Virus genome (UHGV): UHGV-1966322
Reading direction: 5' to 3' (one strand)
Length of the DNA: 22,339 nt
From: a virus
Part shown: in pieces, positions 1 to 19,615 of the stretch
How the letters are laid out: the number at the start of each line of letters is the position of its first letter
Numbering within the stretch: position 1 is the stretch's first letter
The notes under the pieces: generated by a model
The model's database searches: none
Told to the model about the DNA's origin: nothing
The model's input: only the letters and a program-made list of their open reading frames with translations
Program-made: the position numbers and the translations under genes

Positions 1-588
1 AAGGAACGTCGGAGAGCCTTCCTGTTCAATATCCTCATCAAAGGCAGCAAGTTCATAATAACCCGCCACATCCACTGACTTTTCACGGTAGTTTTTTGCC
101 GCTTTACCGCCCAGGCACCAGAAGCCACGACCATTGGAAAAACGCTTCATTGTGAGCGTGTTATCCCGGTGCTTTTTGCCATACCACGGAGCCAGCGCCA
201 GCAGCGACGGAATATCGCGGATGGTCGGCTCAACGTGGGTTTTCATAAAGTTCTCGGCATCACCATCCGTCGGCAACCAGATAAGGGTGTTGCGCTGCTT
301 ATGCTCTATAAAGTAGGCATAAACACCCAGCAGCATTTTGGAATAACCGACACGGGCAGACTTCACCACATTCACCTCACGGATGTAGTCGCTGCCCATC
401 GCATTCATGATGGCCCGCTGAAAGGGCAGTGTTTCCCAGCGCCCTTCCTGGTATGCGGATTCTTTCGGGAGATAGTAATTAGCATCCGCCCATTCAACGG
501 CGGTCTGTGGCTCCGGCCTGAACAGTGAGCGAAGCCCGGCGCGGACAAAATGCCGCAGCCTGTTAACCTGACTGTTCGATATATTCAC
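1..588 (-). CDS. A: Terminase large subunit gpA, N-terminal 196 codons; gene continues beyond window start
   Basis: Reverse complement from 588 reads GTG AAT ATA TCG AAC AGT CAG GTT AAC AGG CTG CGG CAT TTT = (M)NISNSQVNRLRHF, the lambda gpA N-terminus; start overlaps the Nu1 3' end as in lambda; open frame to window edge. Confidence 0.9.
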   Translation of the reverse strand, partial: MNISNSQVNRLRHFVRAGLRSLFRPEPQTAVEWADANYYLPKESAYQEGRWETLPFQRAIMNAMGSDYIREVNVVKSARVGYSKMLLGVYAYFIEHKQRNTLIWLPTDGDAENFMKTHVEPTIRDIPSLLALAPWYGKKHRDNTLTMKRFSNGRGFWCLGGKAAKNYREKSVDVAGYYELAAFDEDIEQEGSPTFL

Positions 589-1108
589 TCAGCAACCCCG
601 GTATCAGTTCATCCAGCGCGGCTGCTTTGTTCATGGCTTTGATGATATCCCGTTTCAGGAAATCAACATGTCGGTTTTCCAGTTCCGGAAAACGCCGCTG
701 CACCGACAGGGGGATCCCGTCGAGAATACTGGCAATTTCACCTGCGATCCGCGACAACACGAAAGTACAGAATGCGGTTTCCACCACTTCAGCGGAGTCT
801 CTGGCATTCTTCAGTTCCTGTGCGTCGGCCTGCGCACGCGTAAGTCGATGGCGTTCGTACTCAATAGTCCCTGGCTGGAGATCTGCCTCGCTGGCCTGCC
901 GCAGTTCTTCAACCTCCCGGCGCAGCTTTTCGTTCTCAATTTCAGCATCCCTTTCGGCATACCATTTTATGACGGCGGCAGAGTCATAAAGCACCTCATT
1001 ACCCTTGCCACCGCCTCGCAGAACGGGCATTCCCTGTTCCTGCCAGTTCTGAATTGTACGGATACTCGCACCGAAAATGTCAGCCAGCTGCTTTTTGTTG
1101 ACTTCCAT
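563..1108 (-). CDS. nu1: Terminase small subunit Nu1 (181 aa)
   Basis: ORF translation MEVNKKQLADIFGASIRTIQNWQEQGMPVLRGGGKGNEVLYDSAAVIKWYAERD... matches lambda Nu1 from memory; sits immediately beside cos. Confidence 0.95.
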   Translation of the reverse strand: MEVNKKQLADIFGASIRTIQNWQEQGMPVLRGGGKGNEVLYDSAAVIKWYAERDAEIENEKLRREVEELRQASEADLQPGTIEYERHRLTRAQADAQELKNARDSAEVVETAFCTFVLSRIAGEIASILDGIPLSVQRRFPELENRHVDFLKRDIIKAMNKAAALDELIPGLLSEYIEQSG

Positions 1109-1109
1109 T

Positions 1110-1330
1110 GTTCATTCCACGGACAAAAACAGAGAAAGGAAACGACAGAGGCCAAAAAGCTCGCTTTCAGCACCTGTCGTTTCCTTTCTTTTCAGGGGGT
1201 ATTTTAAATAAAAACATTAAGTTACGACGAAGAAGAACGGAAACACCTTAAACCGGAAAATTTTCATAAATAGCGAAAACCCGCGAGGTCGCCGCCCCGT
1301 AACATGTCAGATAGCCGGAAAGGACCCGAA
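1110..1330 (-). other. cos: cos site: cosN 12-nt cohesive-end sequence at 1286-1297, cosB toward Nu1, cosQ side at 1298-1330
   Basis: Reverse complement of 1261-1300 is acggGGCGGCGACCTcgcgggttttcgctatttatgaaaa, the lambda left-end sequence joined to the right-end sequence ...gttacg. Confidence 0.85.
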
Positions 1331-1593
1331 TAATGCATACATCCGCATATATTATGGGCCCACACTCAAGCAAATAACTTGTATATGGTCGTAAAATCCC
1401 AATAGCATCTACCAAAGCAAACTATTGAAATTAACCTGTTCATCATGCTTTAAAATAAACCTATGTAATTAATACTTCCACTTAGTTCCAAACTGTTGTG
1501 TGTAGCAACTGACACATAGCCAAGAAAATAAATATCGTCGCAACTTATATGTCACCCCACTAAACCTTATCAACAAACTTACACGTTAAACAC

Positions 1594-2481
1594 TTAATCC
1601 CTATCTAAAATCCCTTTCTTATAAGCCCTAGCAAGATAAAGTAGGTTACTTTCCTTATCATCACTATGTAAAATCTCAGCATGCTTATCACTTACTTTAA
1701 TGAATCCCTTCGCAGCCTGCAGAAGCCCCAAACCTGTCACCAACGGATTTTCCGTGTCGCTAACACTAATAATCGCTCCTAAAACAATATTAACCATATC
1801 GTCAGAACCTGGCATTTCAAAACTTAAATTGTAGCGATTTAAGAACCAACCTTTATTAATTTCACTAATTCTGTTTATATCTTCCAAGGAATTACGGAAG
1901 CGTTCATAAGCCTTTTTTTGAAAAAGCGGCTCATCGGGAGCATAAGCAACATCTTGGTATAAGTCATCCAGATAATTATGGAACGCATCATAATCAACTT
2001 TATATTTATGCTTAAACTCAAGTATCTGCTCCGGATGGATATGTGGTCCGGGAACAGGAAGTGCATCAAAGAGTTCAAGTTTTAAGTTCGTATTTCTATC
2101 ACTTGTCCCATTCCCCCCTATAAATTCCTCTCCTATCTGATGTAAATTCCAGTCACGCTGAGGCTCATCCTTCCTTAACTTACTAAGTATCTCAACCTGA
2201 CGTTTTGGGAACTCTATCGGGTACTGATCGCTATTGAATCCGATAGACACTACTGGTCTAGACAAAAAGTCCAAACCAATCAATATATCTTCTCGGGGTA
2301 ATTGAAAATATATTTCTCTTGAGCCTGGAATTACTAATCTATCCCAAAAAAGAGTGTAATAATTCAAATCTTCTTCATTCAACCCTCGCGCTGTCTGGAA
2401 TCCACCAGTGGGCAAAACTTCCGTCATAACAGGTGAAGCAACAACACATCTTTCCACAATATTCCCCTTAGTAGTTTTCAC
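1594..2481 (-). CDS. Hypothetical protein (295 aa by ORF track), AT-rich orphan/cargo gene between spanin and cos; no recognisable domain
   Basis: Long uninterrupted ORF in visibly AT-rich DNA flanked by AT-rich intergenic DNA. First codon at 2481 is GTG without a Shine-Dalgarno sequence; an in-frame GTG at 2457 is preceded by aaggggaatatt and is a more plausible start. Confidence 0.6.
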   Translation of the reverse strand: MKTTKGNIVERCVVASPVMTEVLPTGGFQTARGLNEEDLNYYTLFWDRLVIPGSREIYFQLPREDILIGLDFLSRPVVSIGFNSDQYPIEFPKRQVEILSKLRKDEPQRDWNLHQIGEEFIGGNGTSDRNTNLKLELFDALPVPGPHIHPEQILEFKHKYKVDYDAFHNYLDDLYQDVAYAPDEPLFQKKAYERFRNSLEDINRISEINKGWFLNRYNLSFEMPGSDDMVNIVLGAIISVSDTENPLVTGLGLLQAAKGFIKVSDKHAEILHSDDKESNLLYLARAYKKGILDRD

Positions 2482-2730
2482 TCAAAAGCTTAGGAGAAAG
2501 TAACTATCACACCTACAAAAAAAAGTAAACGAAAAATACTGTATACTTGATTTGGATTATGAAACTCTATCAGTCACGCTTGTGGCAATAATAAAAATAA
2601 TCGACAACATCGGAATACCGAATAAAAAATCATCTCAAAAATGAAATCTACTAGCATTTTTCGGAACGTCTTTTTCATAAACTAGTACATAGAACAGTTT
2701 GACTGACTTTATAAAATTTATTTTTCCTAG

Positions 2731-3252
2731 TTAATGAGAGGCTCGAACATTTTCTATCTCTCGAATCCCTGCAAAGCGCTTGTTGCCCTTTTCGATAAGT
2801 GACAGTAATGGTTTTATCCAAAGCACTGCCTGACAATATGTCATTGGGCTGGTGGTAACGGCACGATCATCGGCTGAGTTAGGTTTGTCGGTATCGGTGT
2901 GCATGGCGCTGGCACGTAAACGGTACGCGTATTCGAGCAGCCCACCAGCAATGTCAGCAGGAACAGGCAGATCACAGGTTTTTTCACGGCGGAGAATCTC
3001 CCGGTATTCGATAACTGTTTCTTCAGTGCTGGTGTCGATCAGGGAGTTAAGCCTGATGGCATGTTCGGCAACCTGATTGAATCGATTGAAGTTGAATGCC
3101 TGGGTGGCGATCACCTGCCCCTGCATAGAATTGTCGCTTCGCAGAACGTCGTTATCGCTCTGAAGGCTATTGGCGTCGGAGCAACTCTTAACGAGAGCGA
3201 CCGAAAGGACAGCAATAACAACAACGCCTATAAGACCCGGATTAATTTTCAT
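2731..3252 (-). CDS. Rz: Rz-like inner-membrane spanin (i-spanin), 173 aa
   Basis: ATG at 3252 overlaps the endolysin stop (ATGA); N-terminal MKINPGLIGVVVIAVLSVALV membrane anchor followed by a polar, charged periplasmic region; position directly after the endolysin; contains a nested lipoprotein gene. Confidence 0.7.
   Translation of the reverse strand: MKINPGLIGVVVIAVLSVALVKSCSDANSLQSDNDVLRSDNSMQGQVIATQAFNFNRFNQVAEHAIRLNSLIDTSTEETVIEYREILRREKTCDLPVPADIAGGLLEYAYRLRASAMHTDTDKPNSADDRAVTTSPMTYCQAVLWIKPLLSLIEKGNKRFAGIREIENVRASH
2841..2987 (-). CDS. Rz1: Rz1-like outer-membrane lipoprotein spanin (o-spanin), 48 aa, nested in +1 frame inside Rz
   Basis: Manual translation of the alternative frame: (V->M)KKPVICLFLLTLLVGCSNTRTVYVPAPCTPIPTNLTQPMIVPLPPAQ; signal peptide with lipobox LVGC, proline-rich mature part; GTG start; not in ORF track because it is under 60 aa. 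Confidence 0.6.
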   Translation of the reverse strand: MKKPVICLFLLTLLVGCSNTRTVYVPAPCTPIPTNLTQPMIVPLPPAQ

Positions 3253-3797
3253 TGGTCTAACCCCCAGCACGCCAGCGCGCTTTCCTGGTCCCGTCGCTCA
3301 ACCTGACCATAGCAGCCATTCTTCTGGCCTTTGGTTAGACGGCAATCACGGCCACCGTCTTTAATCCACCAGCGGATAGCTTCACAGGCCCCTTTCCGGT
3401 CACCAGAATTGATGCGCTTATAGAACGTAGACGGGAAACATTTTCCGGGGCCGATGTTATATGGGCAGAAAGAAGCGATACCCGCTTTCTGTGGTTCGGT
3501 CAGTGGTACTTTGATATTTCGGTCAACCCACGCCAGCGCCTTGTCGCGTTCAATGGCGTTTACCTGGGCGCATTTCTCAGCTGACAGCTTCATGCCCTGT
3601 ACTACTGGCTTGCCATCAACCATTGTTGCACCACGGCAAATGGTCCAGAGTCCGCCGCCGTCGCGATATGCTGTCAAGCTGTTACCCTCTTTCTCATCCA
3701 GAAACTGATCGAGAATCACGGGTGCGGAAGCCCCGGCAAGAATCAAACCAACGACCGCTGCGCTCAATTTATTCTTCAGCTTTAGAGACATAGCCAT
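3249..3797 (-). CDS. R: SAR endolysin, T4-type (GH24) lysozyme with N-terminal signal-anchor-release domain (182 aa)
   Basis: Weakly hydrophobic Gly/Ala-rich N-terminal segment KLSAAVVGLILAGASAPVIL followed by E...D...T catalytic spacing (EGNSLTAYRDGGGLWTICRGAT); resembles phage 21 R / RrrD-type lysozymes; Shine-Dalgarno GGGAGGA upstream of the ATG at 3797. Confidence 0.85.
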   Translation of the reverse strand: MAMSLKLKNKLSAAVVGLILAGASAPVILDQFLDEKEGNSLTAYRDGGGLWTICRGATMVDGKPVVQGMKLSAEKCAQVNAIERDKALAWVDRNIKVPLTEPQKAGIASFCPYNIGPGKCFPSTFYKRINSGDRKGACEAIRWWIKDGGRDCRLTKGQKNGCYGQVERRDQESALACWGLDQ

Positions 3798-4047
3798 TGC
3801 GCCGATCCTCCCGTTCTTTCCAGCGGAAATACCAGTTCACTGCACAGGTGATTACCGTGCATGCGATACCGACAATAATTGCCCAGTCGCTCAGGCTTAA
3901 CCCTGCAATTCTGTCGGCCAACATCCAGGACACCTCTTTTGCTGTTTTTGCTGTTTCGGCATATGCCTTCGCTGATACACCGCAGCCGGTCAGCGTGGTG
4001 CCTGTTCCATATGAAAGTCTGCTATAAATGGTGCTCATTCTGGTCAT
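3769..4047 (-). CDS. S: Holin (92 aa) with dual-start motif
   Basis: First gene of the lysis cassette, overlapping the endolysin start; N-terminus MTRM gives two in-frame Met starts separated by a basic residue, as in holin/antiholin pairs; hydrophobic segment WAIIVGIACTVITCAVNWYF; Shine-Dalgarno GGAGGTGAGG upstream. Confidence 0.75.
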   Translation of the reverse strand: MTRMSTIYSRLSYGTGTTLTGCGVSAKAYAETAKTAKEVSWMLADRIAGLSLSDWAIIVGIACTVITCAVNWYFRWKEREDRRNGYVSKAEE

Positions 4048-10439: not shown

Positions 10440-11794
<1,355 letters not shown>

Positions 11795-11843
11795 TCCCCA
11801 CCTCAATCTCGATAACCAAAAAACAAACTATTTTCCGTTTAAA

Positions 11844-11911
11844 AACAATGGAGTTTGTTTTTCATGTCCCTTTTTACAATATTTCTTGTTTACAACATAC
11901 AATCTTTCTTG
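11844..11911. promoter_or_regulatory. OL: 434-type left operator OL (three sites) with pL
   Basis: Three ACAA-N6-TTGT 14-mers: acaatggagtttgt (11844-11857), acaatatttcttgt (11875-11888), acaatctttcttgt (11898-11911), upstream of nutL and N. Confidence 0.75.
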
Positions 11912-11957
11912 TAATTTTAAGCCATCAGCAGGACGCACTGACCACCATTGAAGGTGA

Positions 11958-11988
11958 TGCTCTTAAAAATTAAGCCCTGAAGAAGGGC
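11958..11988 (+). promoter_or_regulatory. nutL: nutL (boxA and boxB)
   Basis: gctcttaaaaattaaGCCCTGAAGAAGGGC: boxA-like gctctta followed by the boxB hairpin gccctgaagaagggc, as in lambda nutL. Confidence 0.8.
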
Positions 11989-12146
11989 AGCATTCAAAGC
12001 AGAAGGCTTTGGGGTGTGTGATACGAAACGAAGCATTGGCCGGAAGTGCGAATCCGGATTAGCTGCAAATGAGCCAATCGTGGGGTGTTTTCGTTCAGGA
12101 CTACGACTCACACACACCACCAAAGCTAACTGACAAGAGAATCCAG

Positions 12147-12470
12147 ATGGATGCACAAACACGCCGCCGCGAACGTCGCGCAGAGAAACAGGCTCAATGG
12201 AAAGCAGCAAATCCCCTGTTGGTTGGGGTAAGCGCAAAACCAGTTAACCGCCCTATTCTCTCGCTGAATCGCAAACCGAAATCACGAGTAGAAAGCGCAC
12301 TGAATCCGATAGACCTTACGGTGCTGGCTGAATACCACGAACAGATTGAAAGCAACCTGCAACGTATTGAGCGCAAGAATCAGCGCACATGGTACAGCAA
12401 GCCTGGCGAACGCGGCATAACATGCAGTGGACGCCAGAAAATTAAGGGAAAATCGATTCCTCTTACCTAG
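12147..12470 (+). CDS. N: Antiterminator N (107 aa)
   Basis: Translation from MDAQTRRRERRAEKQAQWKAANPLLVGVSAKPVNRPILSLNRKPKSRVESALNPIDLTVLAEYHEQIESNLQRIERKNQRTWYSKPGERGITCSGRQKIKGKSIPLT matches lambda N from memory; the ORF-track start is upstream. Confidence 0.95.
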   Translation: MDAQTRRRERRAEKQAQWKAANPLLVGVSAKPVNRPILSLNRKPKSRVESALNPIDLTVLAEYHEQIESNLQRIERKNQRTWYSKPGERGITCSGRQKIKGKSIPLT

Positions 12471-13025
12471 TTACTTAGATATTGGCCTTGGCTTTATCTC
12501 AATATTATATGGATCATAGCTGGCAACTAATTCAGTCCAGTAAATATCCTCAATAGGGAATAATATATGCTTCCCGTTCCATCGGGAAAAAGTTTTGTTC
12601 AACACACCAAGCTCAATCAACTCACTAATGTATGGGAATTGTTTTGATGTAACCACATACTTCCTGCCTTCATTAAGGGCTGCGCACAAAACCATAGATT
12701 GCTCTTCTGTAAGGTTTTGAATTACTGATCGCACTTTATCGTTTTGCATCTTAATGCGTTTTCTTAGCTTAAATCGCTTATATCTGGCGCTGGCAATAGC
12801 TGATAATCGATGCACATTAATTGCTAGCGAAAATGCAAGAGCAAAGACGAAAACATGCCACACATGAGGAATACCGATTCTCTCATTAACATATTCAGGC
12901 CAGTTATCTGGGCTTAAAAGCAGAAGTCCAACCCAGATAACGATCATATACATGGTTCTCTCCAGAGGTTCATTACTGAACACTCGTCCGAGAATAACGA
13001 GTGGATCCATTTCTATACTCATCAA
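12471..13025 (-). CDS. sieB: Superinfection exclusion protein SieB-like membrane protein (184 aa)
   Basis: Convergent with N and abutting its stop, as in lambda; hydrophobic segments (MYMIVIWVGLLLLS, VWHVFVFALAFSLAI); recalled as lambda SieB. Confidence 0.8.
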   Translation of the reverse strand: MMSIEMDPLVILGRVFSNEPLERTMYMIVIWVGLLLLSPDNWPEYVNERIGIPHVWHVFVFALAFSLAINVHRLSAIASARYKRFKLRKRIKMQNDKVRSVIQNLTEEQSMVLCAALNEGRKYVVTSKQFPYISELIELGVLNKTFSRWNGKHILFPIEDIYWTELVASYDPYNIEIKPRPISK

Positions 13026-13149
13026 ACTGTAGGGGTTGTAATAGTTTATCCGATTTCTCGCTGTAGGGGTACACGAGAACCACCGAGCCTGATGTGGTTA
13101 AAAGACAGGCACAATCTTTACTACCGCAATCCACTATTTAAGGTGATAC

Positions 13150-13236
13150 ATGGAAGAAGAATTTGAAGAGTTCGAAGAGCATCCTCAGGATGTGATGGAA
13201 CAATACCAGGACTATCCGTATGACTACGACTATTGA
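13150..13236 (+). CDS. Small acidic ORF (28 aa), lambda orf28-like
   Basis: Manual translation MEEEFEEFEEHPQDVMEQYQDYPYDYDY; overlaps the ral start as in lambda. Confidence 0.55.
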   Translation: MEEEFEEFEEHPQDVMEQYQDYPYDYDY

Positions 13237-13420
13237 TAAAAATCAATGGTGTGGACAATTCAAGCGATGCAATGGATGCAAGCTGCAATCGGAATGCATG
13301 GTTAAGCCTGAAGAAATGTTTCCTGTAATGGAAGATGGGAAATATGTCGATAAATGGGCAATACGAACGACGGCAATGATTGCCAGAGAACTTGGTAAAC
13401 AGAACAACAAAGCTGCCTGA
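13220..13420 (+). CDS. ral: Restriction alleviation protein Ral (66 aa)
   Basis: Translation MTTTIDKNQWCGQFKRCNGCKLQSECMVKPEEMFPVMEDGKYVDKWAIRTTAMIARELGKQNNKAA matches lambda Ral from memory. Confidence 0.9.
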   Translation: MTTTIDKNQWCGQFKRCNGCKLQSECMVKPEEMFPVMEDGKYVDKWAIRTTAMIARELGKQNNKAA

Positions 13421-13602
13421 TAGTGGCCTTTATTTTTGGCATAAATAACAGAATAAACACTGCACTGTGTATTCATTCCAACGAGTGAATACACGGAGCA
13501 ATGTCGCTCGTAACTAAACAGGAGCCGACTTGTTCTGATTATTGGAAATCTTCTTTGCCCTCCAGTGTGAGGGCGATTTTTTATCTATGAGGATATGAAT
13601 AG

Positions 13603-13971
13603 ATGTCAAACATCAAAAAATACATCATTGATTACGACTGGAAAGCATCAATAGAAATTGAAATCGATCATGACGTAATGACAGAGGAAAAACTTCACCA
13701 GATTAATAATTTCTGGTCAGACTCTGAATACCGACTCAATAAACACGGCTCTGTATTAAATGCTGTATTAATCATGCTGGCGCAACATGCTCTGCTTATA
13801 GCAATTTCAAGCGACTTAAATGCATATGGTGTTGTGTGCGAGTTCGACTGGAATGATGGAAATGGTCAGGAAGGATGGCCTCCAATGGATGGTAGCGAAG
13901 GAATAAGAATTACCGATATCGATACATCAGGAATATTTGATTCAGATGATATGACTATCAAAGCCGCCTGA
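13603..13971 (+). CDS. ea10: Ea10 (122 aa)
   Basis: Translation MSNIKKYIIDYDWKASIEIEIDHDVMTEEKLHQINNFWSDSEYRLNKHGSVLNAVLIMLAQ... matches lambda Ea10 from memory. Confidence 0.9.
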   Translation: MSNIKKYIIDYDWKASIEIEIDHDVMTEEKLHQINNFWSDSEYRLNKHGSVLNAVLIMLAQHALLIAISSDLNAYGVVCEFDWNDGNGQEGWPPMDGSEGIRITDIDTSGIFDSDDMTIKAA

Positions 13972-14043
13972 GCGCGGCGTTACCGCATACCAATAACGCT
14001 TCACTCGAGGCGTTTTTCGTTATGTATAAATAAGGAGCACACC

Positions 14044-14208
14044 ATGCAATATGCCATTGCAGGGTGGCCTGTTGCTGGCTGCCCTTCCGAATCTTTACTT
14101 GAACGAATCACCCGTAAATTACGTGACGGATGGAAACGCCTTATCGACATACTTAATCAGCCAGGAGTCCCAAAAAATGGACCAAACACTTATGGCTATC
14201 CAGACTAA
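14044..14208 (+). CDS. cIII: cIII (54 aa), FtsH (HflB) protease inhibitor
   Basis: Manual translation [54 protein letters not shown]; under 60 aa, so not in ORF track as such. Confidence 0.9.
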   Translation: MQYAIAGWPVAGCPSESLLERITRKLRDGWKRLIDILNQPGVPKNGPNTYGYPD

Positions 14209-17362: not shown

Positions 17363-17660
17363 GTAGAAGGTGTTATCTCGGATGGAAGTAAGCGTATTGC
17401 TGAACTGGAGGCCTGGGTTGAATACACAAGAGCTGCATACGTAAGAGCAAAAGACAAGGGAGATTTGATCAGAGTTATTACCCGCCAACCAACGGGATTT
17501 TACGCTTACGTACCATGTAATTAGGAATCCTTGAAGTGGCAGCCTAACTGCGGATACACTGAAATGGCGATTTGGTAACATGTTTCGCACAAGGCTGTTA
17601 CTACACTTAGAGATAATCAGCCATGATTAAACGCTTTGTAAAAAGTAAAAGGAAATTACA

Positions 17661-18275
17661 ATGAAAAAATCAATACTAATTTTAGGGCTTACGTTAATTG
17701 TCTCATCTCAAATACCATCGGCAATGGCAAAAAATGAATCAAAACTATGGGTTGTTGTTGATCAAACGGAAAGACATACCTGCCCTTCAAGTAAATGTGG
17801 AGTGGCTGGGAAACTATTTTTCAGGGAAGGCGTAGATTTTCTAGAAAAAAAAGGTGAATGGGTTCGTATAACTGAGCCATATTCAGCCTCATGTGTTGGA
17901 GGGGAAAGCGAATATATTAAAGAAGGTAATAAATCCTGCACAAGAAAAAATGGAATCGTTAATGGCAAGTTTTCAGAATGGGTTAAACTTAGTGATCTTA
18001 GCAGTGAAAGGCCATCAGATCCTGCTGAAAATGCGAGCGGAGATGATACTTTAATCAAAGGATCTGATGACTACCGTATATACAAAAAAGAGTTTTCTTC
18101 GGCAGCTAGGAAGTTAATAAATGAAGGGGTCTGCACGGAAAGCGATTTTAAGGAAATCGGAGGGTGGATGGCATCAAGCAATAAGGGTGAAAACATCTAT
18201 TTCACATATTGCGGAGGAATGACGTTGTCGAACAGAATATACCTAGATGTTAAAAGTGGAAAGACTTTTAGATAA
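17661..18275 (+). CDS. Secreted/periplasmic protein of unknown function (204 aa), AT-rich moron
   Basis: Shine-Dalgarno aaggaaa before the ATG; signal peptide MKKSILILGLTLIVSSQIPSAMA; Cys-containing mature region; visibly AT-rich; intrinsic terminator downstream. Confidence 0.7.
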   Translation: MKKSILILGLTLIVSSQIPSAMAKNESKLWVVVDQTERHTCPSSKCGVAGKLFFREGVDFLEKKGEWVRITEPYSASCVGGESEYIKEGNKSCTRKNGIVNGKFSEWVKLSDLSSERPSDPAENASGDDTLIKGSDDYRIYKKEFSSAARKLINEGVCTESDFKEIGGWMASSNKGENIYFTYCGGMTLSNRIYLDVKSGKTFR

Positions 18276-18345
18276 TATGATATTACCAATGACAGTATTG
18301 ATTTAATGCCTCCATAGAATTATCTCTAGGAAGTAGGTATAAGAA

Positions 18346-18383
18346 AAGCCCGCACAATGAGCTGCTGCGGGCTTTGTGTTATT
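18346..18383 (+). terminator. Intrinsic terminator downstream of the secreted-protein moron
   Basis: aagcccgca...tgcgggctt 9-bp perfect stem followed by tgtgttatt. Confidence 0.6.
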
Positions 18384-18428
18384 CGCCATATTTTATGAAG
18401 CAAATACGACACTATAGATAATTAAGCG

Positions 18429-18530
18429 TTGCTGGTTGTCGATTCCTCAATCACTCCTGTTGATGGCTCTCTTCTTGTATGTGCCATTGAAGGGGAATAT
18501 CGCGTAAAAAGATACCGGAAGTATCCGCGC
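18429..18530 (+). pseudogene. Fragment resembling the C-terminal part of an S24 peptidase (UmuD/LexA/phage-repressor type), lacking the N-terminal catalytic-Ser region
   Basis: Frame reads LLVVDSSITPVDGSLLVCAIEGEYRVKRY, resembling the UmuD segment [29 protein letters not shown]; no start codon or upstream catalytic region; similarity judged by eye. Confidence 0.35.
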
Positions 18531-18568
18531 CGCCATGATTGTCTTTCTCCTGATGCAGGAAAAGCAGA

Positions 18569-18907
18569 ATGGCTAAATCAGCAACAGAGCACAAAGCCGA
18601 TCAGAGAGCCAAGCAAGCATCATCCGGTATGCGTAAGCTGGAGCTTGTACTTGATGCTCAGGAAATTGAAATGCTGGAGCGTAACTGTGCCACGCGTCGC
18701 TTCAGGCGTGCGCCTTGCGAGTTTGGTGAGTACATCGCGTTACTGAGCCGCCAGGATGATGCACGTGTGCGCTGGCGTATAAAATCGATCAGCAGAAAAC
18801 GGTGCGGTAAGTGCGGCGAGAGAGTTCCTGTTAATTCATGCCCGTGTAATGGTGACTCACAATGCTGGGTGACCAAAGGCTGGCACGAAACAAAATTAAT
18901 GATATAA
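18569..18907 (+). CDS. Hypothetical protein (112 aa) with C-terminal Cys-rich zinc-ribbon-like motif
   Basis: ATG preceded by aggaaa; C-terminal CGKCGERVPVNSCPCNGDSQC; no family recognised. Confidence 0.5.
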   Translation: MAKSATEHKADQRAKQASSGMRKLELVLDAQEIEMLERNCATRRFRRAPCEFGEYIALLSRQDDARVRWRIKSISRKRCGKCGERVPVNSCPCNGDSQCWVTKGWHETKLMI

Positions 18908-18935
18908 ATCTCTGTGACATGTCACGGAGGCGGCA

Positions 18936-19364
18936 ATGAAATTAGACCAGCAATATCTAAAAGATCTACTTATCGCATTCGAAAAAACTCGTGGCCCTGA
19001 CACGATGCTTAGTGAACTAGAGGATAATGGCTTTAATAGATATGACCAAGATTTTATTTTCCATATGCGATTATTATGTGACTACGAATTAATAGTCAGG
19101 GTTGATGGAAAACCTGGGTTCGGTCATATATTGTCCAAAGCGTTAGGGGAAGGTGTTGGATATAGTTGGATCGAAGTACCACTGAGGTTGACAGCAAGAG
19201 GGCATGATTTTATTGCTGACTTACGTCAAAAGGATGTCTGGCAAGCTATAAAAACAAACTTTAAGGATGAGGGAATTAGTACACTTATGAGTGTTTCAAA
19301 ATCACTAGCAAAAGGCTTTGCAAGGAAAAAGATAAAAGATATTACAGGAATAGATATTGAATAA
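18936..19364 (+). CDS. Hypothetical protein (142 aa), AT-rich moron
   Basis: Strong Shine-Dalgarno ggagg before the ATG; AT-rich coding sequence; followed by an intrinsic terminator; no family recognised. Confidence 0.65.
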   Translation: MKLDQQYLKDLLIAFEKTRGPDTMLSELEDNGFNRYDQDFIFHMRLLCDYELIVRVDGKPGFGHILSKALGEGVGYSWIEVPLRLTARGHDFIADLRQKDVWQAIKTNFKDEGISTLMSVSKSLAKGFARKKIKDITGIDIE

Positions 19365-19409
19365 TTCTTAGCATCAAGCAACTACTGCCTTTGGTGGAAA
19401 TTATATCTG

Positions 19410-19436
19410 AACTCGCTACGGCGAGTTTTGTTTTAT
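19410..19436 (+). terminator. Intrinsic terminator after the 142-aa gene
   Basis: aactcgc-tacg-gcgagtt hairpin (7-bp stem) followed by ttgttttat. Confidence 0.55.
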
Positions 19437-19447
19437 GGAGATGATAA

Positions 19448-19615
19448 ATGCACTTCCGAGTCACAGGTGAATGGAATGGAGAGCCATTCAACAGGGTTAT
19501 CGAAGCAGAGAACATCAACGACTGTTATAACCACTGGATGATATGGGCGCAGATAGCACATGCAGACGTAACCAATATTCGAATTGAAGAACTGAAAGAA
19601 CACCAAGCCGCCTGA
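19448..19615 (+). CDS. Small protein (55 aa) upstream of xis, lambda orf55-like
   Basis: Manual translation MHFRVTGEWNGEPFNRVIEAENINDCYNHWMIWAQIAHADVTNIRIEELKEHQAA; Shine-Dalgarno ggag upstream; recalled as a conserved small lambda ORF. Confidence 0.6.
   Translation: MHFRVTGEWNGEPFNRVIEAENINDCYNHWMIWAQIAHADVTNIRIEELKEHQAA

What the first reader, a model, noticed from the sequence alone, without database searches (positions are those of the whole stretch)
1340..2730. AT-rich orphan gene inserted between the spanin genes and cos
A roughly 1.4-kb stretch that is visibly far more AT-rich than the surrounding phage DNA carries a single long ORF (1594-2481, about 287-295 aa) with no motif I can recognise: no Walker A, no obvious nuclease signature, no signal peptide or transmembrane segment. 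It sits in the slot between Rz/Rz1 and cos, where lambda carries the bor moron, and is flanked by about 250-300 bp of AT-rich noncoding DNA on each side, suggesting its own regulatory signals. Shape and location fit a horizontally acquired single-gene accessory module, possibly anti-phage defence or abortive infection. This is the strongest candidate in the window for an undescribed function.
Basis: partly seen in the sequence, partly recalled or inferred. Interest (0 to 1): 0.72.

Follow-up and report, generated by a model that had tools for sequence, protein, structure and literature searches.

The report
Uncharacterised DUF6236 cargo gene in prophage
A lambda-like prophage carries, between its lysis genes and its DNA-packaging site, a rare imported gene of the widespread but unstudied DUF6236 family; the family sits in known anti-phage hotspots and is a published but so far unconfirmed candidate for a new kind of phage defence.

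Summary
Window 1340-2742 is a 1.4-kb AT-rich block (GC 0.36 against 0.52-0.55 in the flanks), the lowest-GC stretch of its size in the window. It lies between the Rz/Rz1 stop and lambda-type cosQ/cosN and holds one gene on the minus strand (1594-2457, 287 aa; alternative start at 2481, 295 aa).

The gene is not an orphan. It belongs to Pfam DUF6236, a stand-alone family of about 285 aa with 882 clusters at 50% identity across many phyla. A confident AlphaFold model has no relative among solved structures.

It is variable cargo: only 5 of 5426 complete E. coli genomes carry it. Homologues at 27-70% identity occupy the same slot after the lysis genes in at least seven phage backbones. Another allele sits in the P2 Q-A defence hotspot, and distant members lie beside Abi/HEPN, TIR and PDDEXK defence candidates.

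This exact protein is listed as a "predicted novel defense gene" in the DefensePredictor supplement. However, the one family member tested there (about 28% identical) gave no protection.

Defence is therefore plausible but unproven, and the mechanism is unknown. No promoter or terminator of its own was found here.

The parts
1340..2742 (.). AT-rich inserted cargo block between cosQ and the end of Rz
   Evidence: GC is 0.362 against 0.476 elsewhere, z = -3.0. Homology to other lambdoid prophages ends at 1339 and resumes at about 2743.
1594..2457 (-). DUF6236-family gene, 287 aa (33 kDa, pI 5.0); RefSeq WP_128450465.1 / WP_126688523.1
   Evidence: Pfam PF19749 at 58.7 bits and phrog_23128 at E = 1e-25. 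The protein is identical to that of strain W619. Against homologues at 51-71% identity, dN is 0.19-0.46 with dS saturated, or dN/dS is 0.16.
2458..2481 (-). Possible 8-codon N-terminal extension (GTG 2481 start, 295-aa version); contains the AAGGGG Shine-Dalgarno sequence (2464-2469) of the 2457 start
   Evidence: Sequence. Homologues start at the position equivalent to 2457. PGAP uses either start.
2482..2730 (-). AT-rich (about 30% GC) upstream intergenic region; no consensus-level promoter found
1340..1593 (-). AT-rich downstream intergenic region; no intrinsic terminator
   Evidence: No terminator-like site. The RNA fold z-score is +0.9.
1286..1297 (-). cosN cohesive-end sequence GGGCGGCGACCT; a cosQ-like sequence follows up to about 1339
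   Evidence: Single exact match, 0 expected by chance. There is 96-97% identity to lambda/DE3 cos-Nu1.
563..1108 (-). Nu1 terminase small subunit (downstream neighbour, same strand)
2731..3270 (-). Rz i-spanin (upstream neighbour, same strand), with Rz1 o-spanin embedded at 2841-2987
   Evidence: The ORFs, an N-terminal transmembrane segment and the Rz1 lipobox LLVGC are.
3249..4047 (-). Endolysin (3249-3797) and holin (3769-4047) of the lysis cassette

Best explanation
The block is a moron-type cargo. A single stand-alone gene of the DUF6236 family was imported from a low-GC source. It now sits in the lysis-to-packaging junction (Rz/Rz1 to cosQ) of a lambda-like prophage integrated at att-lambda.

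The most likely role is competition between phages: a one-protein exclusion or abortive-infection factor that benefits the lysogen or prophage against other phages.

Shown:
- It is a real gene under purifying selection.
- It is rare, variable cargo.
- It needs no conserved partner gene.
- It is a soluble, acidic 33-kDa protein. A confident model shows an N-terminal alpha/beta domain, a three-helix insert and C-terminal strands.
- It has no relative among solved structures.
- The family recurs in recognised prophage immunity hotspots and beside defence genes.

Inferred:
- It is transcribed at least as part of the Q-antiterminated late transcript. It is co-oriented with that transcript and no terminator lies on either side.
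- It may also be expressed weakly from the AT-rich upstream region in the lysogen.

Speculative mechanism (about 0.15-0.2):
- The conserved N-terminal body senses a phage product or small molecule.
- The sequence-variable, Gly/Ala/Ser-rich hydrophobic segment near the C-terminus (residues about 215-265) is then released to attack the inner membrane and stop the infection.
For: Real gene and family:
- Pfam DUF6236 at 58.7 bits.
- 882 representative clusters at E<=1e-3 and 346 at <=1e-10, nearly all about 280-300 aa and single-domain.
- dS is saturated while dN is 0.19-0.46; dN/dS is 0.16 in the one pair that could be computed.

Variable cargo:
- 5 of 5426 E. coli genomes carry it, and other cargo fills the same slot elsewhere.

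Repeated capture at the same junction, always co-oriented with the lysis and terminase genes:
- Lambda-like phages (window, L002, L024).
- HK97-like phages with HNH and Terminase_4 from Kosakonia and Salmonella, and related metagenomic contigs (L003, L009, L014).
- L006, L025, L027, L067.
- A lambdoid phage with 94%-identical holin and endolysin but a 27%-identical DUF6236 allele (L068).
- Sources.

Hotspots:
- The region upstream of the packaging module is a described moron and immunity location, as for Tai in phi80 (PMC11364771).
- Another E. coli allele (WP_053901735.1, 28% identical) lies in the P2 Q-A hotspot next to a PIN protein.
- That allele is listed as system #125 'DUF6236', with 23 occurrences, in Rousset et al. 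2022 Table S5B (PMC9122126). It is present in 22 of 5426 genomes.

Neighbours:
- There is no conserved partner gene.
- Immediate neighbours in unrelated taxa include an AbiD/PD-T4-5-like HEPN, PDC-S31, TIR-TM and a PDC-S26 PDDEXK protein.
- ThsA, LmuA/B, a type I specificity subunit and a type IV restriction enzyme lie within three genes.

Published prediction:
- WP_126688523.1, this protein, is listed as 'Predicted novel defense gene' with log-odds 6.82, where the paper's cut-off is 4 (PMC13092281 supplement).

Structure:
- The AlphaFold model has pLDDT 84 and pTM 0.85.

C-terminal segment:
- 33% of members have an uncharged run of at least 18 residues there, against 0.7% in the N-terminal 100 residues.
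- The segment is enriched in G, A and S.
- Weak matches there go to DUF1269, Bacteriocin_IIc and 2TM-effector models.
Against: - The only experimental test of the family was negative. Working id '6236' (WP_097421955.1) was placed in E. coli MG1655 and challenged with 24 phages, and it was scored defensive = FALSE (PMC13092281 Table S6). That allele's sequence was not retrieved. A similar-length E. coli allele (WP_053901735.1) is 28% identical to the window protein.
- No PADLOC or NCBIfam model matches the protein. No defence model is matched recurrently by 150 family members beyond hits caused by the SEC-C motif.
- Several published defence morons in this region are transcribed divergently so that they are expressed in the lysogen (bor, TaiEcA). 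This gene is co-oriented with the late operon.
- The gene lacks a detectable promoter or terminator in the window.
- In this protein the C-terminal segment is only mildly hydrophobic (KD19 maximum 1.19; no transmembrane segment predicted). It is also the least confident part of the model (pLDDT 47-64).
- Some homologues sit among housekeeping genes, for example in Chryseobacterium.
- The machine-learning prediction uses genomic context, so it is not independent of the context argument.
- One copy (L026) is frameshifted.
Confidence: 0.45

Rival explanations
1. It is a late-expressed phage fitness factor rather than a lysogen-protecting defence. It would be made from the pR' late transcript together with the lysis genes and act during lytic growth. 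Possible roles include modulating lysis or the envelope, blocking adsorption of progeny to debris, counteracting a host defence, or sabotaging co-infecting phages or satellites.
For: - In every phage-borne locus examined the gene follows holin, endolysin and spanin, precedes the packaging genes, and lies on the same strand.
- In the window there is no consensus promoter upstream and no terminator on either side, so late transcription must read through it.
- Even a Pusillimonas chromosomal locus has a phage lysozyme two genes away.
- The one family member tested for defence from a plasmid was negative.
Against: - Many family members are not in phages at all. Examples are small Acinetobacter plasmids, a Vibrio conjugative plasmid, and a Chryseobacterium chromosome between housekeeping genes.
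- Others lie in the P2 Q-A hotspot, far from lysis genes.
- The gene is absent from more than 99.9% of related lambdoid prophages, so it is dispensable for lysis and assembly.
- It has no signal peptide, lipobox or transmembrane segment of the kind seen in lysis proteins.
- Homologous loci L003, L014 and L025 carry a terminator just after the gene, and L003 has its own promoter-like site. This is moron architecture that implies autonomous expression.
Confidence: 0.25
2. It is selfish or host-adaptive cargo unrelated to phages. It could be a toxin-like or addiction module, a stress or membrane-physiology factor, or effectively neutral DNA hitch-hiking in a recombination-permissive slot.
For: - No known function, no catalytic motif and no partner gene were found.
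- Distribution is patchy and rare.
- The AT-rich composition is typical of H-NS-silenced foreign DNA.
- One copy is frameshifted.
- Neighbourhoods are heterogeneous and include housekeeping genes.
- The defence test of a homologue was negative.
Against: - Strong purifying selection holds over deep divergence.
- The family keeps its full length across 882 clusters.
- Divergent alleles were captured independently at the same phage junction and at the P2 hotspot.
- Defence genes recur as direct neighbours in unrelated phyla.
Confidence: 0.25
3. The ORF is a chance reading frame in AT-rich non-coding DNA.
For: AT-rich DNA is poor in some stop codons, and there is no known domain function.
Against: - The Pfam and PHROG matches are far above threshold.
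- Hundreds of full-length homologues exist.
- dN is much lower than dS.
- A confident AlphaFold model was obtained from the family alignment.
Confidence: 0.01

Closest known systems
Lambda bor / Iss moron (Rz-to-cos slot of lambda and relatives)
   Same: It occupies the same genomic slot, is a single-gene accessory cargo, and is variable among lambdoid prophages. Iss is seen in this slot in other E. coli prophages.
   Different: Bor/Iss is a lipoprotein of about 97 aa, transcribed opposite to the late genes, and confers serum resistance (my own knowledge). The gene here encodes a 287-aa cytoplasmic protein with no lipobox, is co-oriented with the late genes and is not homologous.
Tai (tail assembly inhibition) systems, e.g. 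phi80 TaiEcA (PMC11364771)
   Same: Tai is a single-protein, prophage-encoded immunity gene found predominantly just upstream of the packaging module, with highly divergent alleles (22-43% identity).
   Different: There is no sequence similarity: tblastn of the window protein against 50,697 phage records found only two Vibrio elements. TaiEcA is about 26 kDa, is divergently transcribed, and is paired with an anti-Tai gene. No such partner is seen here.
Rst_DUF4238 (single-gene P2-hotspot defence against T7, Rousset et al. 2022, PMC9122126)
   Same: It is a stand-alone DUF protein of about 300 aa with unknown biochemistry. It is carried in the P2 Q-A hotspot, where a DUF6236 allele is also catalogued.
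   Different: Profile-sequence comparison gives probability 0.2%, so the two families are unrelated. DUF4238 has been validated experimentally and DUF6236 has not.
Sensor-plus-membrane effectors such as Cam1 (CARF + TM) and CBASS/Thoeris 2TM or TIR-TM effectors
   Different: All matches are below significance. The domain order is reversed relative to Cam1. No cyclase or signal-generating partner is present, and the window protein has no predicted transmembrane helix.
Morons of HK97/HK022-type phages (promoter-gene-terminator units, e.g. HK97 gp15)
   Same: It is inserted between genes that are adjacent in relatives and differs in base composition. Homologues in L003, L014 and L025 carry their own terminator, and L003 has a promoter-like site.
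   Different: In the window itself no promoter or terminator reaches consensus level.

Membership tests
Pfam DUF6236 (PF19749) | Score above the curated gathering threshold over most of the model | tested here: met
   58.7 bits against a cut-off of 26.2, covering residues 19-287 of the protein and positions 58-320 of 324 in the model. All 150 aligned relatives also match.
Pfam DUF6236 (PF19749) | Family-conserved residues present (YWD, RP, W..HQ.G, LPxP, EFK, H160, Y167, D175, C-terminal YL..A) | tested here: met
   Alignments A2, A3 and A4: P136 is invariant, and G4, Y37, W38, D39, P44, W103, P134, F148, K149, Y167, D175 and Y274 are at least 90% conserved. All are present in the window protein.
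Moron (accessory transcription unit in a phage late region) | Inserted between genes that are adjacent in related phages | tested here: met
   The Rz and cos-Nu1 flanks are shared with thousands of prophages that lack the gene.
Moron (accessory transcription unit in a phage late region) | Base composition different from the surrounding genome | tested here: met
   GC 0.362 against 0.52-0.55 in the flanks; z = -3.0.
Moron (accessory transcription unit in a phage late region) | Own promoter and own terminator | tested here: inconclusive
   In the window, no minus-strand promoter-like site lies upstream, there is no terminator, and the downstream RNA fold z-score is +0.9. Homologues L003, L014 and L025 have a terminator 13-30 nt after the stop codon, and L003 has an extended -10 site.
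Known anti-phage defence systems (PADLOC-DB v2) | Match to a defence protein model | tested here: not met
   0 families at E<=1 for the window protein. Across 150 relatives only sporadic hits or hits caused by the SEC-C motif appear.
Anti-phage defence gene (generic) | Resides in variable hotspots of mobile elements or next to defence genes | tested here: met
   It is found in the Rz-cos slot and the P2 Q-A hotspot. Neighbours include AbiD-like HEPN, PDC-S31, TIR-TM and PDC-S26 proteins.
Anti-phage defence gene (generic) | Expression reduces phage plating or protects the culture | not testable with these tools
   The only published test of a family member (WP_097421955.1) was scored defensive = FALSE against 24 phages in MG1655 (PMC13092281 Table S6). 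This allele has not been tested.
Tai (tail assembly inhibition) | Homology to Tai proteins; divergent orientation with a linked anti-Tai gene | tested here: not met
   There are no E. coli phage hits by tblastn. The gene is co-oriented and has no conserved partner.
Bor/Iss lipoproteins | Signal peptide with lipobox; about 100 aa | tested here: not met
   The protein is 287 aa, its N-terminus MERCVVASPVMTEV is not hydrophobic, and it has no lipobox.
Rst_DUF4238 | Homology to the validated DUF4238 protein | tested here: not met
   hhalign probability 0.2%, E = 0.38.
HEPN RNases | Conserved Rx4-6H motif at a helix N-terminus in a four-helix bundle | tested here: not met
   The single RDWNLH match lies in a predicted beta-strand and the R is not conserved in the family. 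The family 'RRxDELxxLH' motif has a spacing of 7 and its arginines are absent from the window clade.
CARF-like ligand sensors | Significant structural match of the N-terminal domain to CARF | tested here: inconclusive
   [not shown]
Membrane-inserting (2TM / glycine-zipper) effectors | Predicted transmembrane helices or hairpin | tested here: inconclusive
   The window protein has a KD19 maximum of 1.19, so no transmembrane segment is predicted. In the family the median is 1.45, and 24% of members reach 1.6 at relative position 0.86. 33% have an uncharged run of at least 18 residues in the C-terminal part. Weak DUF1269, Bacteriocin_IIc and 2TM hits occur.
Phage lysis proteins (holin, antiholin, spanin) | Transmembrane segment or lipobox; presence in all related phages | tested here: not met
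   There is no transmembrane segment or lipobox. The gene is absent from nearly all related prophages, which have complete S-R-Rz/Rz1 cassettes.

The most novel reading that the evidence does not exclude
DUF6236 would be a structurally unprecedented, one-protein abortive-infection or exclusion module. In this reading a conserved alpha/beta-plus-helical body senses a late phage product. A hypervariable glycine-rich C-terminal hairpin then permeabilises the membrane. Phages would repeatedly capture divergent alleles at the lysis-packaging junction and express them from the late transcript. This would sabotage co-infecting phages or satellites that hijack late gene expression, a defence deployed during the lytic cycle rather than in the lysogen.
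Probability: 0.15. Interest if true: 0.75.

Novelty: new variant of a known kind. Interest (0 to 1): 0.45.

Why it matters
If DUF6236 is a defence or inter-phage competition protein, it would add a widespread single-gene system to the prokaryotic immune repertoire. The family spans many phyla and occurs in phages, plasmids and chromosomes, and its fold has no relative among solved structures.

It would also give a clean case of one family colonising two classic prophage hotspots, lambda Rz-cos and P2 Q-A. Its constant co-orientation with the late operon raises a testable question: are some 'defence' morons designed to act during the carrier phage's own lytic cycle?

If it turns out to be neutral cargo, the value is modest. 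It would be a well-documented example of hotspot cargo and a caution about context-based defence prediction.

Tried and rejected
- A first AlphaFold run with a 5-sequence alignment failed (pLDDT 35). It was replaced by a run with 150 sequences.
- Sequence and profile searches of the PDB found nothing below E = 0.15.
- HEPN was considered and rejected. The Rx4H match is in a beta-strand and the R is not conserved.
- PD-(D/E)XK was considered because of D39 and E147-x-K149. It was rejected because the ExK lies in a predicted helix and no nuclease fold was hit.
- DUF4238 homology was rejected.
- Tai and Bor homology were rejected.
- GiPD474 (an ATPase) and HepS (a HEPN protein), the Gifsy-1 defence proteins, were checked in the literature. 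They are different proteins.
- Rfam found nothing in the block.
- Small ORFs in the flanks are all short and unconserved.
- A 16-nt imperfect inverted repeat brackets the gene (1489-1504 / 2686-2701). It is about what chance gives in this much AT-rich DNA.
- No conserved partner gene exists.
A degenerate DNA pattern for DILEFKxRRxxE was used instead.
- Full-text literature searches for DUF6236, PF19749 and the accessions returned nothing. The information was in supplementary tables.
Full report
**1. The observation.** The compositional break is real.
- GC in 300-nt windows is 0.52-0.56 up to about 1050. It falls to 0.34-0.40 between about 1200 and 2850 and returns to about 0.5 afterwards.
- The block 1340-2742 has GC 0.362 against 0.476 for the rest of the window. 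No other stretch of the same length in the window goes below 0.397 (z = -3.0).
- It contains one long ORF, 1594..2481, on the minus strand.
The start at 2457 has an AAGGGG Shine-Dalgarno sequence 6 nt upstream and matches the N-terminus of all homologues. I therefore take 287 aa as the likelier product.
- The claims of no Walker A, no signal peptide and no transmembrane segment hold.

**2. The surroundings.**
- The gene lies on the same strand as holin (3769-4047), endolysin (3249-3797), Rz (2731-3270) with embedded Rz1 (2841-2987, lipobox LLVGC), and Nu1 (563-1108).
- The lambda cohesive-end sequence GGGCGGCGACCT is at 1286-1297.
- Identity to lambda-type cos/Nu1 DNA runs up to 1339. Identity to other Rz genes resumes at about 2743. 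The foreign block therefore abuts cosQ on one side and the Rz stop codon on the other.
- The window is a lambda-like prophage at att-lambda next to ybhC.

**3. Is it variable cargo?** Yes.
- Of 5426 complete E. coli genomes, 4426 match the cos/Nu1 flank but only five carry the block. Three are 99.8% identical and two are 97.9% identical.
- Prophages that share both flanks carry other genes there: ydfO (DUF1398) with YlcI, Iss (the bor homologue) with YlcI, Rha, KilA-N, a Fur-regulated protein and others.
- In strain 65COLEC the same module sits in a defective prophage at icd. In W619 and 4114 the prophages look complete.

**4. What is the protein?**
- It is not an orphan. It matches Pfam DUF6236 (58.7 bits against a cut-off of 26.2) and phrog_23128, both of unknown function. 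Nothing matches in PADLOC, NCBIfam or PDB sequences.
- A profile search of 1.84 billion representative proteins found 882 clusters at E<=1e-3. Nearly all are 280-300 aa and match over their full length.
- A few members carry an added SEC-C zinc motif at either end.
- Against homologues at 51-71% identity, synonymous sites are saturated while dN is 0.19-0.46. dN/dS is 0.16 where it could be computed. The protein is identical between the window and W619.
- All enterobacterial alleles are AT-rich, with GC 0.34-0.39 and GC3 0.27-0.33.

**5. Structure.**
- With a 150-sequence alignment, AlphaFold gives a confident model (pLDDT 84, pTM 0.85).
- The model has an N-terminal alpha/beta region (residues 1-135) and three helices (142-200). 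These are followed by a strand, a helix (219-232), a low-confidence loop (237-247) and two further strands.
- Weak hits to CARF domains recur (Csm6, Cad1, Cam1). They are at the same level as unrelated Rossmann-like and helical hits, so I treat them only as a lead.
- Conserved residues are mostly aromatic or proline. The polar ones are D39, R67, K149, H160 and D175. No known catalytic signature fits.
- The C-terminal 215-265 region is unusual. It is variable in sequence but consistently rich in Gly, Ala and Ser and hydrophobic across the family. This produces weak matches to glycine-zipper and 2TM models.
- In the window's clade this region is milder and is not predicted to span a membrane.

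**6. Genomic context of relatives.**
- Homologues at 51-70% identity in Kosakonia, Salmonella and metagenomic phages sit directly after holin, endolysin and spanin and before the packaging genes, on the same strand. They do so even though these phages have HK97-type HNH/Terminase_4 packaging modules rather than lambda's.
- An IMG/VR lambdoid phage has holin and endolysin 94% identical to the window's. It carries a DUF6236 allele only 27% identical to the window protein in the same slot.
- A different E. coli allele (28% identical) lies in a P2-like prophage between the replication gene A/DinI and portal gene Q, beside a PIN protein. Rousset et al. list 'DUF6236' as system #125, with 23 occurrences, in that P2 hotspot (PMC9122126 Table S5B). 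The allele is in 22 of 5426 complete genomes.
- Other members lie at the end of a Vibrio prophage, on a Vibrio conjugative plasmid among toxin-antitoxin genes, and on small Acinetobacter plasmids 20 nt downstream of an AbiD/PD-T4-5-like HEPN gene.
- In 29 loci from GTDB species found with a degenerate motif search, no partner gene is conserved.
- Direct neighbours in those loci include PDC-S31, TIR-TM and PDC-S26 PDDEXK candidates. Thoeris, Lamassu and restriction components occur within three genes, alongside integrases, a relaxase and ordinary housekeeping genes.
- I could not compute a formal enrichment statistic.

**7. Literature.**
- Full-text searches for DUF6236 found nothing, but supplementary tables did.
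- In the DefensePredictor paper (PMC13092281), this exact RefSeq protein, WP_126688523.1 (cluster representative WP_128450465.1), is listed as 'Predicted novel defense gene' with log-odds 6.82. The paper uses a cut-off of 4.
- Table S6 of the same paper records that a DUF6236 protein from an ECOR strain (working id '6236', WP_097421955.1, log-odds 8.56) was cloned and challenged, and scored defensive = FALSE.
- The assay used E. coli MG1655 and 24 phages, and 45% of candidates validated overall. The authors note that negatives may reflect the phage panel, expression or system boundaries.
- The family is therefore a published but unvalidated candidate.

**8. Expression.**
- In the window no sigma-70-like site lies on the gene's strand upstream. 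No intrinsic terminator lies on either side, and the downstream RNA does not fold better than shuffles.
- The gene is co-oriented with S, R, Rz and Nu1, so Q-antiterminated late transcription must pass through it. This is an inference from lambda biology.
- Expression in the lysogen is not excluded, because the 30%-GC upstream region holds many weak candidate sites. It has not been shown either.
- Homologous loci L003, L014 and L025 have a strong terminator 13-30 nt after the stop codon. L003 has a terminator, then an extended -10 promoter, then the gene, then a second terminator, which is the classic moron layout.

**9. Verdict.**
- The most likely function is inter-phage competition or defence. 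I put this at about 0.45, from hotspot residence in two phage families, divergent alleles at one slot, defence neighbours and the machine-learning prediction. The estimate is tempered by one negative test of a distant allele and the absence of any recognisable effector.
- A late-acting phage fitness role (0.25) and unrelated or neutral cargo (0.25) remain open.
- The proposed mechanism, a sensor body with a membrane-directed C-terminal hairpin, is an inference with low confidence.
- The gene and its candidate status are already in public tables. What is undescribed is the function and the fold. Interest is moderate.

Noticed in passing
window 14031-14089 (+): Rfam Lambda_thermo (cIII thermoregulator element) matches at 88.5 bits, E = 1e-20. 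This confirms a lambda-type early-left region.
   Followed up: no
L068 3593-4459 (IMGVR_UViG_2534682223_000004): A lambdoid phage has holin and endolysin 94% identical, and Nu1 86% identical, to the window's. It carries a DUF6236 allele only 27% identical in the same Rz-to-Nu1 slot. That allele is absent from all 5426 complete E. coli genomes.
   Followed up: partly
L026 4994-5882 (IMGVR_UViG_2639763008_000001): A 99%-identical copy of the gene is split into two overlapping ORFs by a frameshift. This is either a pseudogene or an assembly error.
   Followed up: no
L021 6832-8831 (Acinetobacter lwoffii pALWED1.3) and L051 1479-3424: A two-gene arrangement is present. An AbiD/PD-T4-5-like HEPN protein (weak RiboL-PSP-HEPN/Abi_2 match) lies 20 nt upstream of a DUF6236 gene on the same strand, on small plasmids. 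It may be a two-component variant of the family.
   Followed up: partly
[not shown]
   Followed up: partly
L001 17930-19562 (E. coli 65COLEC): The same Rz-DUF6236-cos module lies in a defective prophage at icd beside McrBC-like genes. Its nin region holds WP_000097610.1 (PRTase-like) plus a NADAR protein. WP_000097610.1 is a component of the validated system DS-32 in DefensePredictor Table S6. This pair does not appear to be in the window.
   Followed up: no
window 1489-1504 and 2686-2701: A 16-nt imperfect inverted repeat (88% complementary) brackets the gene. It is roughly what chance gives in 1.7 kb of AT-rich DNA.
   Followed up: partly
window 11500-14000 and 17500-19500: These are further AT-rich stretches (GC 0.37-0.41) in the early-left and int-proximal regions. 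They are likely other accessory genes, for example the ORF at 17661-18275.
   Followed up: no
L003 7665-8886, L014 7870-7891, L025 10896-10914: Homologues carry an intrinsic terminator 13-30 nt after the stop codon. L003 also has an upstream terminator and an extended -10 promoter 26 nt before the ATG. This complete moron layout is missing from the window copy.
   Followed up: yes
P0067, P0148 (family members): Some DUF6236 proteins carry a SEC-C zinc-binding motif at the N- or C-terminus. This motif explains their hits to the PADLOC PDC-S12 and CBASS E1-E2 models.
   Followed up: no
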